The notes beneath the pieces are model-generated. The model saw nothing but the letters and a program-made list of their open reading frames with translations, ran no database searches and was not told the DNA's origin. Of a stretch of DNA of 64,000 nt, positions 10,678-46,128 are shown piece after piece (positions within the stretch are counted from its first letter, which is position 1; each line of letters begins with the position of its first letter). The translations under genes and the position numbers were made by a program. This DNA is from Eledone cirrhosa (taxonomy: Eukaryota). The stretch spans positions 9,362,001 to 9,426,000 of the forward strand of contig OZ024759.1 in the NCBI GenBank assembly GCA_964016885.1, in the 5' to 3' direction.

Positions 10678-11090
10678 AATATATTAATAAATGGAAACTA
10701 TATTTATAAAACCATAATTATTTTATTATATATAATATATATATTTCAAGGGCGACCAAGCCAATCTTGGTGCGCTTTCATCAGATAAAATACAAAATTT
10801 GTTTTATAAATAGTGACATAACCACTATCCAGCGAATTTTCAACCGTCAAGGTTGTTTTCCATGGTTATGTCACTATTTATAAAACAAATTTTGTATTTT
10901 ATCTGATGAAAGCGCACCAAGATTGGCTTGGTCGCCATTGAAATATATATAATAAAATAATTATGGTTTTATAAATATAGTTTCCATTTATTAATATATT
11001 GTATATTTACTCCAGTAATTTGTTGAGTGCTCTATATCAGTTATAAACATTTAAGTTTGTTGGAATCCCAACAAATTAAATATAACTCCT
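10678..11090. mobile_element. Fold-back PLE-derived element family D with two opposed hammerheads
   Basis: About 140-bp inverted arms 10678-10824 / 10862-11000 plus an about 90-bp unique tail; preceded by (TA)n. Confidence 0.85.
10897..10957 (+). ncRNA. Type I hammerhead ribozyme motif
   Basis: UUUUAU CUGAUGA [AAGCGCACCAAG AUUGG CUUGGUCGCCAUU] GAAA UAUAUA UA AUAAAA. Confidence 0.85.
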
Positions 11091-11103
11091 AAATATAACT
11101 CCT

Positions 11104-11245
11104 AGTGGTTAGAGCATTGGGCTTGCAATCGAAAGGTTGTGAGTTCAATTCTCAGACCGGGTGATGTGTTGTTTCCTTGAGCAAGACACTTTATTTCACA
11201 TTGTTCCAGTTTACTCAGCTGTAGAAATGAGATGATAGGGACTCC
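11104..11245 (+). mobile_element. SINE family B, 5' part
   Basis: tRNA head and central ccttgagcaagacacttt domain. Confidence 0.85.
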
Positions 11246-11249
11246 AGTT

Positions 11250-11777
11250 TCATGGAGTGTTATGCACATAAAAAAATTCAACTTTTTGATCCCCTAGGGC
11301 CTGCATTAGGTGAAAAACTGCGTTATTTTAGCTTTTTAGGGGTTTTTTGAGGCTTTACGTCAGACCAATTTCCTTGAAATTCTAACTGTATTAGTCAGTC
11401 TCTTCTTCATACCGTGAGCAGAGAAAATCCAACTTTTTTATGGCCTGGGGCCCGCATTAGGTGAAAAACTTCATTTTTTCAGCTTTTTGGGGCTTTTTTG
11501 AGGCGTTACGTCTAGCCGATTTTCCCGGTATTTCAAGGCATATTATGCACATAAAAAAAAATTCATTTTCTTGATCCCCTAGGGCCCGCATTAGGTGAAA
11601 ACCTGCATTTTTCCTGCTTCATCAAGGAAAATCTTAAAGATTATCCAGCCATCAGAGTATTCGGTTTATTTTCATTACATATTATCCAGGCATGCAGTTT
11701 TTCCACGATTAGGCCTGTTGTTGGCAGCCCGCGATTCAAAATACCTTATCCCATGCAACGCCGGGTACCACTGCTAG
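11250..11777 (+). mobile_element. Non-autonomous Helitron, 3' part
   Basis: Ends with hairpin cccatgcaacgccggg then ctgCTAG|T at 11774-11778; internal imperfect repeats; same terminus inverted at 24422. Confidence 0.75.
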
Positions 11778-11804
11778 TATATATAAATATATATATATAT
11801 ATAT

Positions 11805-40749: not shown

Positions 40750-41460
40750 TTCTTTCTCTCCCTACTCTCTTTCTCCTCTCACTATCTCTCTTGTTTCCCC
40801 CTCTCTCTCTCTCTCTCCCCACTTTCTCTCCCTACTCTCACTATCTCTCACCATCTCTCTCTCTCTCTCTACTCTCACTATCTCTCTCGTTTCCCCCCCT
40901 CTCTCTCTCTCTCCCCACTTTCTCTCCCTACTCTCACTATCTCTCACCATCTCTCTCTCTCTCTCTACTCTCACTATCTCTCTCGTTTCCCCCTCTCTCT
41001 CTCTCTCTCTCTCCCCACTTTCTCTCCCTACTCTCACTATCTCTCTCGTCCCCCCTCTCTCTCTCTCCCCACTTTCTCTCCCTACTCTCACTATCTCTCA
41101 CCATCTCTCTCTCTCTCTCTCTCTACTCTCACTATCTCTCTCGTTTCCCCCTCTCTCTCTCTCTCTCCCCACTTTCTCTCCCTACTCTCACTATCTCTCA
41201 CCATCTCTCTCTCTCTCTCTCTACTCTCACTATCTCTCGTTTCCCCCTCTCTCTCTCTCTCCCCACTTTCTCTCCCTACTCTCACTATCTCTCACCATCT
41301 CTCACTATCTCTCACCATCTCTCTCGTCCCCCTCTCTCTCTCTCCCCACTTTCTCTCCCTACTCTCACTATCTCTCACCATCTCTCTCTCACTATCTCTC
41401 ACCATCTCTCTCTCTCTCTCTCTCTATCTATCTATCTATCTCTCACCATCTCTCTCGACC
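40750..41460. repeat. CT-rich minisatellite (ctctcactatctctc/ccccactttctc)
   Basis: Direct inspection. Confidence 0.85.
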
Positions 41461-41764
41461 CCCCCCCCCCACACTCCCCACTTTCTCTCCCTACTCTCTC
41501 TGCACTCTCTCCTTTCCTACTCTGTCTATCTCTCTTTCTTCCCCACTCTCTTAGTCTATCTCTCTTCGGCCTTTTCCTTGTTTCCCTTTTCTTCCCCCCC
41601 CCCCTCCCACCCTCTCACTGCTGTCATTTAACCCAACAAAGCTGCAAATCTCTCACATTTCGACCAGGAAGAAGAAGAAGTAATATTTATCTTCCATATT
41701 TCCATCGACGGTCACCCTACATCACTGGAGTCTCCTGCTTTCGCCTCACCATATGTTCCATCTC

Positions 41765-43200
41765 CATCATATATACACACACATGTAATATACATCATAT
41801 ATATACATCATATATATATATACACACACACCTGCATGCATACATCATATATATATAGTACACATATTGTGCAGCCACCTGTATGATCACATCTCACAAT
41901 CCATACATATATACACATATATACACACACACACCTGCATGCATACATCATATATATATAGTACACATATTGTGCAGCGATCTGTATGATCAGATCTCAC
42001 AATCCATACATATATACACATATATATACACACATATGTAATATACGTCATATATATACACATATGTAATATATATATACACACATATGTAATATACATC
42101 ATATATATATATATATATATATATATATACACACACACACCTGTATGCATACATCATATATATATACACATATTGTGCAGCGATCTGTATGATCACAACT
42201 CACAATCCATACATATATACACATATATATATATATACACATATGTAATATACATCATATATATACACATATGTAATATACGTCATATATATACATCACA
42301 TATATATATATGTATGATCACAACTCACAATCATAGTGACACATATATATATACACATATGTAATATACGTCATATATATACACATATGTAATATATATA
42401 TTCACACACATATGTAATATATATATATATATATACACACATATGTAATATACATCATATATATATATATATATACACACACACACACACCTGTATGCAT
42501 ACATCATATATATAGTACACATATTGTGCAGCGATCTGTATGATCACAACTCACAATCCATATATATATACACATATATACACACATATGTAATATACGT
42601 CATATATATATATATACACATATGTAATATATATATATATATATATATATATACACATATGTAATATACGTCATATATACATATATACACATATGTAATA
42701 TATATATATACACACACATGTAATATACACATATATACACACATATGTAATATACGTCATATATATACACATATGTAATATATATATATACACACATATG
42801 TAATATACATCATATATATATATATATATATATATATATATATATATATATATATATATACACACACACCTGTATGCATACATCATATATATATATACAT
42901 TGTGCAGCGATCTGTATGATCACAACTCACAATCCATACATATATACACATATATACACACATATGTAATATACGTCATATATATATATATATACACATA
43001 TGTAATATATATATATATATATATATACACACACATATAATATACGTCATATATACATATATACACATATGTAATATATATATATACACACACATGTAAT
43101 ATACGTCATATATACACACATATTTAGTATACATCATATATATATATATACATATGTAGTATACATCATATATATATGTACATATATATGTAGTATATAT
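41765..43200. repeat. Complex TA/CA tandem array with recurring anchor gtgcagcgatctgtatgatcacaactcacaatcc
   Basis: Anchor at about 41868, 41972, 42175, 42526, 42902. Confidence 0.8.
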
Positions 43201-45662
43201 ACCTATTGTGCAGACACGTGCGTGCTTGTCAATTGCGTACACAGGTATATATATTCTACAACAACCTGCATATATATATATATATATATATATATATATA
43301 TATTGTTATATTTGGGGAGGGTCATATTTGCGTAATATTGCCAGAATTAATAACAGAACACACGATTTCATATAAAAAACCTCGCAAAACTAATTCATCG
43401 CCGCTATATATATATATATATATATATATAATAAAAATTACATAATCGTGTTTGATTTATTAACAATCATATAAACACACACGAAGACACACGTATATAT
43501 ACATACACACACACACACATATATATATACATACATACATATATATATATATATACACATATATATATACATACATACTTACATATATATATATATATAC
43601 ATACATACATATATACACATCTGGACATATATTTAGACACATTTATAGATGCATCTACACACATACTTGTCTCATAAACACTATATATACATGTCACATA
43701 CACACTATCTTATATACACTGACAGACGGATGTAAACACACCTGCATATACATGTTTACATACAAACACACCTTGATGTCTTCTGCATAGTCACACACAC
43801 ATTCACATACATACATACATATACACATATACCCATACATACATACATACATATATATACACATATACCCATACATACATACATACATACATATACACAT
43901 ATACCCATACATACATATACACATACATACATATACACATACACACTCACACATACAAACATATACATATACACATACATACACACAAACATACATATAC
44001 ATACACACACACACGCAAACATATACATACACACATATAAATACAAAACCATATTGAAACCACCTTCATCGTTGCAAACATACATACGTGTATATACACA
44101 TAAACACACCTACGCATACACGTGTGCGTGTGTGTGTATATATATATATATATATATATATATATATATATATATATACACCTAACCCTACCTACACATT
44201 CTTACACACATAGATGTGTGTATATATATACACAGACCCACCTAAGTACACACATATACCACATGCATATACACACCGCATAGATGTCTCTATACACACA
44301 GACCCATTTACACATGCATATACACACATAAACTCACATACATATACACACATAGAGATGTGTATATGTACATAGACCTACCTTCTACACATACATATAC
44401 ACACAGATGTATGTATATACATAAACCTACCTACATATATATATAGATGTGTATATACATCAACTCAGCTACATATATACACACATAGATGTGTATATAC
44501 ATCAACTCAGCTACATATATACACACATATGTGTATATAGACCCACCTACGCTTCCTACATACATATACACACAGGTTGCTTAGAAATCACATAATATAT
44601 ATATATTAATAAACGGATCTTGGTACCGTGTATATACACCGTCGTAGATAGACACTATATATATATATATATATATATATACACACCGTCGTAGATAGAC
44701 ACTATATATATATACACACCATCGTAGATAGGCACTATATATACACACCATCGTAGATAGGCACTATATACACACCGTCGTTGACACTATATATATACAC
44801 ACCATCGTTGACACTATATATATATATATATATACACACACACACCATCGTTGACACTATATATATACACACCGTCGTGTGACACTATATAATCACACTA
44901 TATAAACACACTATATATACACACACTATATATAAACACACTATATATACACACACTATATATATACACACACTATATATATACACTATATACACACAAT
45001 ATACACTATATATACACACTATATACACACAATATACACTATATATACACACAATATACACTATATATACACACAATATACACACATCTGCTGGGAGACT
45101 TCTAGGAGAAATCATGGAAATATTTCGATTCTTCCAGTCAACTCAGTAAGACAACTTCTCTTATTTACAAACATCTTACTATTGTGTGTATATATATGTC
45201 TGTGTGTGTATATATATATGTGTATGTGTGTATATATGTGTCTGTGTGTGTGTATATATATATATATGCGTGTGTGTGTATATATATGTTATTGTGTGTA
45301 TATATGCCTGTGTGTGTGTGTATATATATGTGTCTGTGTGTATATGTATGTGTGTGTATATATGTGTCTGTGTGTGTATGTGTATATATATATATATGCG
45401 TGTGTGTGTATATATGTTATTGTGTGTATATATGCCTGTGTGTGTGTGTATATATATGTGTCTGTGTGAATATGTGTGTGTATATATATGTCTGTGTGTG
45501 TGTATATGTATGTGTATTTATATATATATGCGTGTGTGTATATATATATGTGTGTGTGTGTATATATATATATATGTGTGTGTTTGTGTGTATATGTGTG
45601 TATATATATGTGTCTGTGTGTATGTGTATATATGTGTCTGTATATATATATATATATATATA

Positions 45663-46128
45663 TACAATATTAAATAAATGGAAAACTATATTTATAAAAC
45701 CATATCTATTTCATTATATATATTTCGGGGATATCATATTAACAATATGCTATGCCTTCATCAGACAAAATACAATATAAACAGTTTTATAGATAAATAT
45801 ATTCGACATACCGTAATAAACATCAACTTCATTTGAAGAGGTTCACTCTAGCAGAGTGAACCTCTTCAAATGAAGTTGATGTTTATTACGGTATGTCGAA
45901 TATATTTATCTATAAAACTGTTTATATTGTATTTTGTCTGATGAAGGCATAGCATATTGTTAATATGATATCCCCGAAATATATATAATGAAATAGATAT
46001 GGTTTTATAAATATAGTTTTCCATTTATTTAATATTGTAAATATACTCCAAGTATTTGTCGAGTGCTTTTATATCAGTTATAAATATTTACTAGTTGTAA
46101 CCCAACAATTTTAAATATAACTTTACAT
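45663..46128. mobile_element. Fold-back element family D with two hammerheads (+ 45932-45993)
   Basis: About 185-bp near-perfect inverted arms around a tagca centre; intact CUGAUGA/GAAA cores; tail contains tcgagtgct. Confidence 0.9.

What the first reader, a model, noticed from the sequence alone, without database searches (positions are those of the whole stretch)
10678..46128. Family D: two opposed ribozymes per element with covarying helix II
Five copies (10678, 11805, 26901, 27342, 45663) form 140-185-bp hairpins with one hammerhead on each strand. Helix II sequence differs between copies (CACCAAG/CUUGGU, CCAUAUU/AAUAUGG, ACACCA/UGGUGU, CAUAUU/AAUAUG; GUACUG/CAGUAC in the relative at 34419) while pairing is retained. 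In the 26901 copy the two cores differ only at the free position N7. Read-through from either direction would yield a ribozyme together with its antisense, so cleavage versus dsRNA formation could compete. The (TA)n flanks and long palindromes may also extrude cruciforms.
Basis: partly seen in the sequence, partly recalled or inferred. Interest (0 to 1): 0.72.

Follow-up and report, generated by a model that had tools for sequence, protein, structure and literature searches.

The report
Mirrored Penelope ends carrying hammerhead ribozymes
These DNA palindromes are back-to-back copies of the end of a known kind of jumping gene that carries a hammerhead (self-cutting RNA) motif; the doubling is likely a by-product of insertion, and an RNA read through one is predicted to zip up and block the ribozyme rather than use it.

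Summary
The palindromes and hammerhead motifs are real. Four of five copies have two intact cores; at 11805 both cores have lost G8. Each copy is the end (pLTR) of a Penelope-like retroelement with Hydra-clade protein motifs, present twice head-to-head in (TA)n: one arm with an ~88-nt tail, one without. The host is likely an octopod. Its genome holds at least 42,437 such hammerhead motifs, 10,765 close head-to-head pairs, and intact 732-745-aa RT-endonuclease ORFs. Pair spacing runs from 0.1 to 3.9 kb, and either arm can carry the ORF. Core conservation and helix II covariation hold between subfamilies, but the two arms of one insertion decay alike in core and flank. The proposed competition is not supported: the antisense arm is always transcribed first, and the hairpin is predicted to win by 77-103 kcal/mol. 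Opposite-strand hammerhead pairs and inverted pLTRs are already published (PMC4209133, PMC8557442), and this scan noted the same pattern on other pieces of this genome. What adds interest is the scale and the tailed-plus-tailless rule (32 of 33 pairs), which likely reflects two cDNAs primed at one break.

The parts
10678..10824 (-). Element 1, tailless inverted pLTR arm; hammerhead C3 at 10784, helix III loop expanded by 9 nt
10821..11088 (+). Element 1, tailed pLTR arm; hammerhead C3 at 10903, predicted cleavage after 10951; 89% to the pLTR of ORF-bearing L129
11805..12069 (-). Element 2, tailed arm; core broken (CUGAGCA, C3 at 11993); 97% to ORF-bearing L091
12067..12250 (+). Element 2, tailless arm; core broken (CUGAGAA, C3 at 12151)
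26901..27078 (-). Element 3, tailless arm; hammerhead C3 at 27000 (CUGACGA)
27078..27323 (+). Element 3, tailed arm; hammerhead C3 at 27135 (N7 C-to-T, one helix II mismatch); 96% to ORF-bearing L099
27342..27520 (-). Element 4, tailless arm; hammerhead C3 at 27439; extends 27 nt further upstream than its partner, and that extra stretch is the 'loop'
27520..27760 (+). Element 4, tailed arm; hammerhead C3 at 27573; 99% to the pLTR of the full-length element L032
27798..27858 (-). Remnant tailless end of the same family, truncated inside the ribozyme, in the same (TA)n run
45663..45853 (-). Element 5, tailless arm; hammerhead C3 at 45764
45853..46128 (+). Element 5, tailed arm; hammerhead C3 at 45938; 98% to the pLTR arm at intact-ORF locus L201
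56799..56995 (.).
34375..34600 (.). Related family: tailless arm with one hammerhead (C3 at 34475, minus) joined to what is likely that family's short tail piece on the plus strand

Best explanation
Each palindrome is an insertion of two head-to-head, 5'-truncated copies of the end (pLTR) of a Penelope-like retroelement with Hydra-clade motifs, likely made when the element's enzyme primed two cDNAs at one (TA)n break, and a read-through RNA is predicted to fold as dsRNA that blocks the hammerhead. Shown: both arms match the pLTR of ORF-bearing elements; one arm ends at a fixed tailless site and the other ~88 nt further on; both ends abut (TA)n; arm lengths vary independently; either arm can carry the ORF. 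Inferred: a dimeric RT-endonuclease nicks both strands, starts one cDNA at each of two fixed RNA sites (each 6-7 nt before a repeated small hairpin motif), and the two truncated cDNAs are joined at 0-8 nt of overlap. The ribozyme is selected in the master elements, where two same-strand copies about 3.8-4.0 kb apart (or on two RNAs) would pair through the palindromic helix III. In the short palindromes it is a passenger that decays neutrally.
For: Full-length parent L032: inverted pLTR, pLTR, ORF, 3'UTR, pLTR, in (TA)n. Intact 732-745-aa ORFs in 8 of 8 loci fetched for long open frames, with DKT, CxCX5C and CxxC..E in 8, RWK/R in 7, N..CxH in 7; best fold match is TERT. Tailed arms of the five elements are 89-99% identical to pLTRs at ORF-bearing loci. 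One tailed plus one tailless arm in 32 of 33 head-to-head pairs, spans 149-3,810 nt. ORF on the tailless arm in 3 and the tailed arm in 5 of 8 ORF-bearing pairs. (TA)n after 76 of 78 tailless and 44 of 48 tailed ends. 21 head-to-head against 3 tail-to-tail neighbours among the first 100 motif matches. Arm differences are neutral. Hairpin favoured by 76.5-103.4 kcal/mol in all 10 strand cases. A purified Penelope-like protein cuts and extends both strands from two start sites that bound the tail, and is predicted to be a dimer (PMC11167929).
Against: 72 of 128 sampled arms had no anchored partner. Of these, 12 of 49 tailless arms showed an inverted tail end and 0 of 23 tailed arms a tailless end within the <=900 nt fetched, so not every insertion is shown to be two-armed. 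Near-perfect hairpin centres (11805, 45663) and arms that share private variants (13 of 27 pairs identical) fit fold-back copying equally well; PMC3846280 argues for self-priming. Junction mapping was usable and tight for only 18 of 38 pairs. The GIY-YIG fold was not confirmed separately, and Pfam gave no relevant hit. No cleavage or RNA data.
Confidence: 0.8

Rival explanations
1. Same element, other route: one cDNA folds back or self-primes and copies itself, so the inverted arm is a second-strand copy that stops at the tailless site.
For: Arms are near-identical and share private variants even 3.5-3.7 kb apart (L131, L135). Centres with 3-5 unpaired nt exist. Self-priming was proposed for Adineta Penelope (PMC3846280).
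Against: In 3 of 8 ORF-bearing pairs the tailless arm is kilobases longer than the tailed arm. In the window copies the loop is unmatched element sequence from the longer arm. One pair (L156) has helix II haplotypes of two different subfamilies in its arms. All of these need extra template jumps under fold-back.
Confidence: 0.3
2. One reading: a selected two-ribozyme cassette in which self-cleavage competes with dsRNA formation as a switch.
For: Core conservation and helix II covariation are real. 10,765 close head-to-head pairs exist. Inverted Penelope copies give siRNAs in transgenic Drosophila (PMC3681739).
Against: The antisense arm is transcribed first on both strands. Core bases are predicted paired (P unpaired about 0.001 or less, except at and beside arm mismatches) once the ribozyme is complete. 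Spacing is unconstrained, many pairs lack one ribozyme, arm differences hit the core freely, and both cores at 11805 are broken.
Confidence: 0.06
3. The short palindromes are themselves a non-autonomous mobile family (MITE-like or retrozyme-like) that is copied as a unit.
For: Very high number, terminal inverted structure, (TA)n flanks, no coding capacity.
Against: Junctions differ from copy to copy within one 98-99% identical subfamily. The inverted repeat covers the whole arm and is asymmetric by the tail. No tandem same-strand units as in retrozymes. Continuous size series up to full-length elements.
Confidence: 0.08

Closest known systems
Hydra clade of C-terminal EN+ Penelope-like elements (Craig et al. 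2021, PMC8557442), e.g. Hydra-1_Obim, Penelope-13_HM
   Same: Single ORF with RWK/R, DKT, CxCX5C linker, CxxC and CxH around the conserved E and N; (TA)n targets; hammerhead near the 3' end. Penelope-13_HM is listed with an inverted 5'-truncated copy and the same hammerhead on both strands.
   Different: The hammerhead sequence is unlike that listed for Hydra-1_Obim; longer helix II with a conserved C-C mismatch; long 3'UTR (unit about 3.8-4.0 kb against generally <3 kb); clear pLTRs; tens of thousands of copies.
[quoted passage not shown]
   Same: Long helix II, short palindromic helix III, many variable subfamilies with compensatory changes. The paper reports dual motifs 100-700 bp apart on opposite strands and ties the dispersed motifs to truncated PLEs.
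   Different: Helix I is 8 bp and extends further; the first helix II pair is mostly A-U or a mismatch rather than G-C; at least 42,437 motifs against about 9,000 in the richest genome of that paper (different descriptors).
Inverted pLTR with one-sided tail in Adineta Penelope (PMC3846280) and internal RT initiation of Poseidon_Ac (PMC11167929)
   Same: Head-to-head inverted pLTR, tail on one end only, AT-rich targets, two start sites that bound the tail.
   Different: Tail about 88 nt rather than 30-40 nt and lying upstream of the ATG; the one-tailed/one-tailless rule and the either-arm ORF placement are counted here over many insertions.
Metazoan non-LTR retrozymes (PMC7761336; bioRxiv 10.64898/2026.07.22.740005)
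   Same: Non-coding, type I hammerhead, tied to PLE pLTRs.
   Different: Retrozymes are same-strand tandem repeats that give circular RNA; these are inverted pairs of the autonomous element's own end.

Membership tests
Type I hammerhead ribozyme | Core CUGANGA, GAAA, UH in a three-helix junction | tested here: met
   8 of 10 arms intact; 11805 arms lack G8
Type I hammerhead ribozyme | Helices supported by compensatory change, core conserved, N7 free | tested here: met
   93.7% of cells paired, 77 double-change cells vs 28.6 shuffled; number of covarying pairs 9 vs 8.3, not above shuffles; few independent events; N7 free
Type I hammerhead ribozyme | Match to an Rfam hammerhead model | tested here: not met
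   no hammerhead family up to E 10 on 27520-27700
Type I hammerhead ribozyme | Self-cleavage at the NUH site | not testable with these tools
   needs an assay; related minimal motifs are weak or protein-assisted
PLE minimal (dimer-type) hammerhead | Short helix III with palindromic loop | tested here: met
   UAUAUA or UAUGUA here, UGCGCA in the family at window 242-308; all self-pair as 8-mers, weakly for the AU-rich ones
EN+ Penelope-like element | Telomerase-like RT in a single ORF | tested here: met
   GLYRDD in 8 of 8 ORFs; model pLDDT 86, top Foldseek match TERT E 5.7e-10
EN+ Penelope-like element | C-terminal GIY-YIG endonuclease | tested here: inconclusive
   Y[VI]G motif and flanking Cys motifs present; no Pfam hit and no separate fold search of the domain
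EN+ Penelope-like element | pLTRs in direct and inverted orientation with a one-sided tail | tested here: met
   L032
EN+ Penelope-like element | Retained spliceosomal intron in the pLTR | tested here: inconclusive
   donor-like GGTAYGTC conserved about 45 nt before the core; no spliced copy seen in the displayed part; no RNA data
Hydra clade | RWK and DKT motifs; CxCX5C linker; CxxC and CxH around E and N | tested here: met
Hydra clade | (TA)n insertion preference | tested here: met
Hydra clade | Length generally under 3 kb | tested here: not met
   pLTR-to-pLTR about 3.8-4.0 kb because of a long 3'UTR; a tendency in the paper, not a strict criterion
Hydra clade | Groups with published Hydra RTs in a tree | not tested
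   published Hydra proteins were not available as session sequences
Non-LTR retrozyme | Same-strand tandem units, each with a hammerhead | tested here: not met
   arms are inverted and come from the autonomous element's end

The most novel reading that the evidence does not exclude
Penelope-like enzymes integrate by symmetric double priming: a dimer opens (TA)n on both strands and starts two cDNAs at two hairpin-marked RNA sites 88 nt apart, so most insertions are born as inverted repeats. In this genome that has left over 10,000 perfect dsRNA-forming hairpins that block their own ribozyme and could feed siRNA or ADAR pathways against an element that still has intact ORFs.
Probability: 0.45. 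Interest if true: 0.6.

Novelty: new member of a known kind. Interest (0 to 1): 0.3.

Why it matters
The feature as flagged is ordinary: opposite-strand hammerhead pairs and inverted pLTRs are published traits of Penelope-like elements. Two things are useful. First, how these telomerase-related elements form their tandem and inverted ends is an open question, and a young family with intact ORFs and a strict tailed-plus-tailless rule makes the two-primer and fold-back models directly testable. Second, tens of thousands of subfamily-structured hammerheads show that the catalytic core is selected in amplifying masters even though cleavage was dispensable in the one in vitro study; searches found no paper describing this in cephalopods beyond Craig et al.'s single Hydra family.

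Tried and rejected
Rfam found no hammerhead; microRNA hits were simple-repeat and palindrome artefacts. Pfam gave nothing relevant on ORF pieces or homologs; a PDB sequence profile gave only a weak retron RT hit, E 0.008. No RNA holder was listed, which is no evidence on expression. The four runs laid were contigs of unknown kind from one study: loose ends into (TA)n at both fixed ends, no splice joint among those shown; depth not used. A fossil A-to-I signature was not found: private A>G 18 vs T>C 11 in 103 arms, p=0.09, with both arms of L131 counted. Automated junction mapping was spoiled for 12 of 38 pairs by palindromic sister copies and gave larger gaps for 8. The 5'-end histogram (58 of 185 arms end 120-159 nt upstream of the anchor, near a CACTATCC motif) hints at run-off at an RNA 5' end but is broad, and 29 of its loci were selected for length. 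An amplified dead-ribozyme subfamily at 11805 was rejected (9 of 927). A Neptune assignment was dropped once the Hydra motifs were found. Lunse et al. 2017 was not held; only its title was seen. Cruciform extrusion was not testable. A sequence look-up in earlier findings returned nothing.
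Full report
Observation. The five palindromes lie where stated. Arms are about 144-190 bp with 1-4 differing sites or indels per pair. Each arm has a type I hammerhead layout: helix I of 8 bp, CUGANGA, helix II, GAAA, a two-pair helix III with a palindromic loop, and an AUA site. My strict scan found 6 of the 10 arms. It missed the 45663 pair because the first helix II pair is an A-C mismatch, and the 11805 pair because both cores have lost G8. 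In that subfamily 918 genomic copies read CUGAGGA and 9 have another base at G8, two of them the arms of this element. The N7 difference at 26901 is a C-to-T change at a CpG, one of three arm differences there. Rfam does not recognise the motif.

What it is. A search of the own genome (3.0 Gb) with the tailed arm of 27342 gave 1,328 first-look candidates; the 40 scored were 98-100% identical. Among 30 loci, some have an inverted arm, some have none nearby, centres differ from copy to copy, and several run on into longer shared sequence. L032 is a whole element: (TA)n, inverted short pLTR, direct pLTR, a broken RT-endonuclease ORF, long 3'UTR, second pLTR, (CA)n(TA)n. A search with its N-terminus gave 1,550 candidates; 23 of 150 scored lie in open frames of 737-761 codons. 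Eight of these were fetched and all have 732-745-aa ORFs with DKT, GLYRDD, CxCX5C and CxxC..E; RWK/R and N..CxH are each in 7 of 8. These are the Hydra-clade diagnostics of Craig et al. (PMC8557442; section 11, passages and supplement part 2 of 59 read). The AlphaFold model (pLDDT 86) matches TERT best. The closest named homologs are from Argonauta, so the host is likely an octopod. The tailed arms of the five window elements are 89-99% identical to pLTRs at ORF-bearing loci.

Scale. The hammerhead pattern has 21,360 + 21,077 exact matches, control 0. A downstream pLTR 26-mer has 44,202. Head-to-head half-cores 100-161 nt apart number 6,100 + 4,665, controls 1 and 0; this looser pattern includes related families.

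Geometry. I fetched 97 stretches covering the first 100 listed matches. They and the window hold 140 arms and 33 head-to-head pairs with spans of 149-3,810 nt; 32 pairs have one tailed and one tailless arm. (TA)n follows 76 of 78 tailless and 44 of 48 tailed ends. In the 8 pairs with ORF sequence, the ORF belongs to the tailless arm in 3 and the tailed arm in 5. In the window copies the 'loop' is the extra upstream sequence of the longer arm, and 18 of 38 short pairs abut within -5 to +8 nt (the rest unusable or gapped). Against a strict rule, 72 of 128 arms had no anchored partner, and only 12 of them showed an opposite end within the <=900 nt fetched. A motif RCTCC..TGTYGAGYGCTTTA with a 4-bp stem lies 6-7 nt past each of the two ends; this lead came from earlier scan notes, and the stems are weak (-0.5 to -4 kcal/mol).

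Selection. Of 100 copies chosen by the downstream flank alone, 86 kept both ribozyme blocks and 14 were truncated or deleted (heavily damaged cores would fall among these 14). N7 was 54 T, 14 A, 13 G, 5 C; the 12 core sites had 10 changes in 1,032, nearly all singletons. Nearest-neighbour difference was 0.6% in the core, 2.8% in helix II and 3.4% upstream. On 45 haplotypes picked by hand from 103 (recurrent ones plus family representatives), 93.7% of cells pair and 77 cells change on both sides against 28.6 in shuffles, with 8 of 10 helix II pairs covarying; the count of covarying pairs itself (9) is not above shuffles. On a tree of 45 tailed arms built from flanks, N7 changes at least 7 times, while the compensated pairs change 1-3 times per side, often through G-U. 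Covariation is thus real but rests on few events. Between the two arms of one insertion (27 of 33 pairs comparable, 13 identical) the core differs at 6 of 324 sites and other sites at 30 of 2,477, p=0.30. Selection acts on masters, not on the inserted pair.

Competition. Because the arms are head-to-head, a read-through RNA of either strand makes the antisense arm first. Forcing the hammerhead fold costs 76.5-103.4 kcal/mol against the hairpin in all 10 cases, and in nascent RNA the core is predicted paired except at and beside arm mismatches. Even the isolated arm prefers another fold by 4-9 kcal/mol, in line with weak or protein-assisted activity in relatives. The plausible partner is a second same-strand copy: 4 of the 8 intact-ORF loci carry two, 3.8-4.0 kb apart. 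These are predictions; no RNA data were available.

Mechanism. Shown: PLE origin, fixed ends, target, independent arm lengths, neutral decay. Inferred: two cDNAs primed on the two strands of one (TA)n break from two fixed RNA sites, then joined head-to-head. This follows the in vitro behaviour of Poseidon_Ac (PMC11167929, parts 1-2 of 4 read). Fold-back self-priming (PMC3846280, passages) remains the main rival for this step.

Known versus new. Cervera and de la Pena (PMC4209133, parts 1-2 of 4 read) report dual minimal hammerheads 100-700 bp apart on opposite strands. Craig et al. describe inverted 5'-truncated copies and one-sided tails and list Penelope-13_HM with its hammerhead on both strands. 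Inverted Penelope copies yield siRNA in flies (PMC3681739, passages). Also seen: PMC7761336 and PMC13282606 (passages; the latter does not mention hammerheads) and bioRxiv 10.64898/2026.07.22.740005 (part 1 of 5; its supplements are closed and could list such families). Figures and the Hydra alignments in Craig's supplement were not seen. Searches found no paper on this family or on twin priming in PLEs. This scan's earlier notes describe the same pattern on other pieces of this genome. Verdict: a new, very abundant member of a known kind; interest 0.3.

Noticed in passing
window 11987-11993 and 12151-12157: Both arms of the 11805 element are changed at the same core base G8, to different letters, though only 9 of 927 subfamily copies are changed there. 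Error-prone repair of a hairpin mismatch or an assembly error could explain it.
   Followed up: partly
about 45 nt upstream of each core, e.g. window 27527-27534: GGTAYGTC, resembling a 5' splice donor, is kept across subfamilies and in the 34419 family while its surroundings diverge; if used, the hammerhead would lie in an intron.
   Followed up: partly
tail of each element, e.g. window 27678-27705; L016 1758-1775: A small hairpin motif occurs twice, 6-7 nt past the tailless and the tailed end, with A-U in the first and G-C in the second at its base.
   Followed up: partly
L156 719-967: One short pair has helix II haplotypes of two different subfamilies in its arms yet shares a private flank variant: template switch or patch conversion.
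   Followed up: partly
helix II of all subfamilies: A C-C mismatch after the third pair is kept in 42 of 45 tailed arms, and helix I extends past a bulge into a further 10-bp stem; possible tertiary contact.
   Followed up: no
window 242-308 (minus) and 57535-57590 (plus): Two other hammerhead families beside (TA)n runs; the first has loop 3 UGCGCA and accounts for many of the head-to-head pairs listed.
   Followed up: partly
   Followed up: no
window 58876-59160 (minus): Degraded fragment similar to the element's C-terminal endonuclease region (38% identity).
   Followed up: no
window 11095-11245: SINE-like sequence (tRNA-like head; label from recall) directly after the tailed end of the 10678 element, preceded by a 13-nt duplication.
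   Followed up: no
window 17810-22105, 60702-64000, 38693-39837, 1138-1471, 23632-24327: Long minisatellite arrays of period 28/56, 54/108, 72, 96 and 140.
   Followed up: no
window 32009-34105: Two interrupted inverted arms of about 500 nt at 87-88% around a 1-kb spacer, unrelated to the pLTR family.
   Followed up: no
window 26901-27858: Three insertions of three subfamilies sit side by side in one (TA)n tract.
   Followed up: partly
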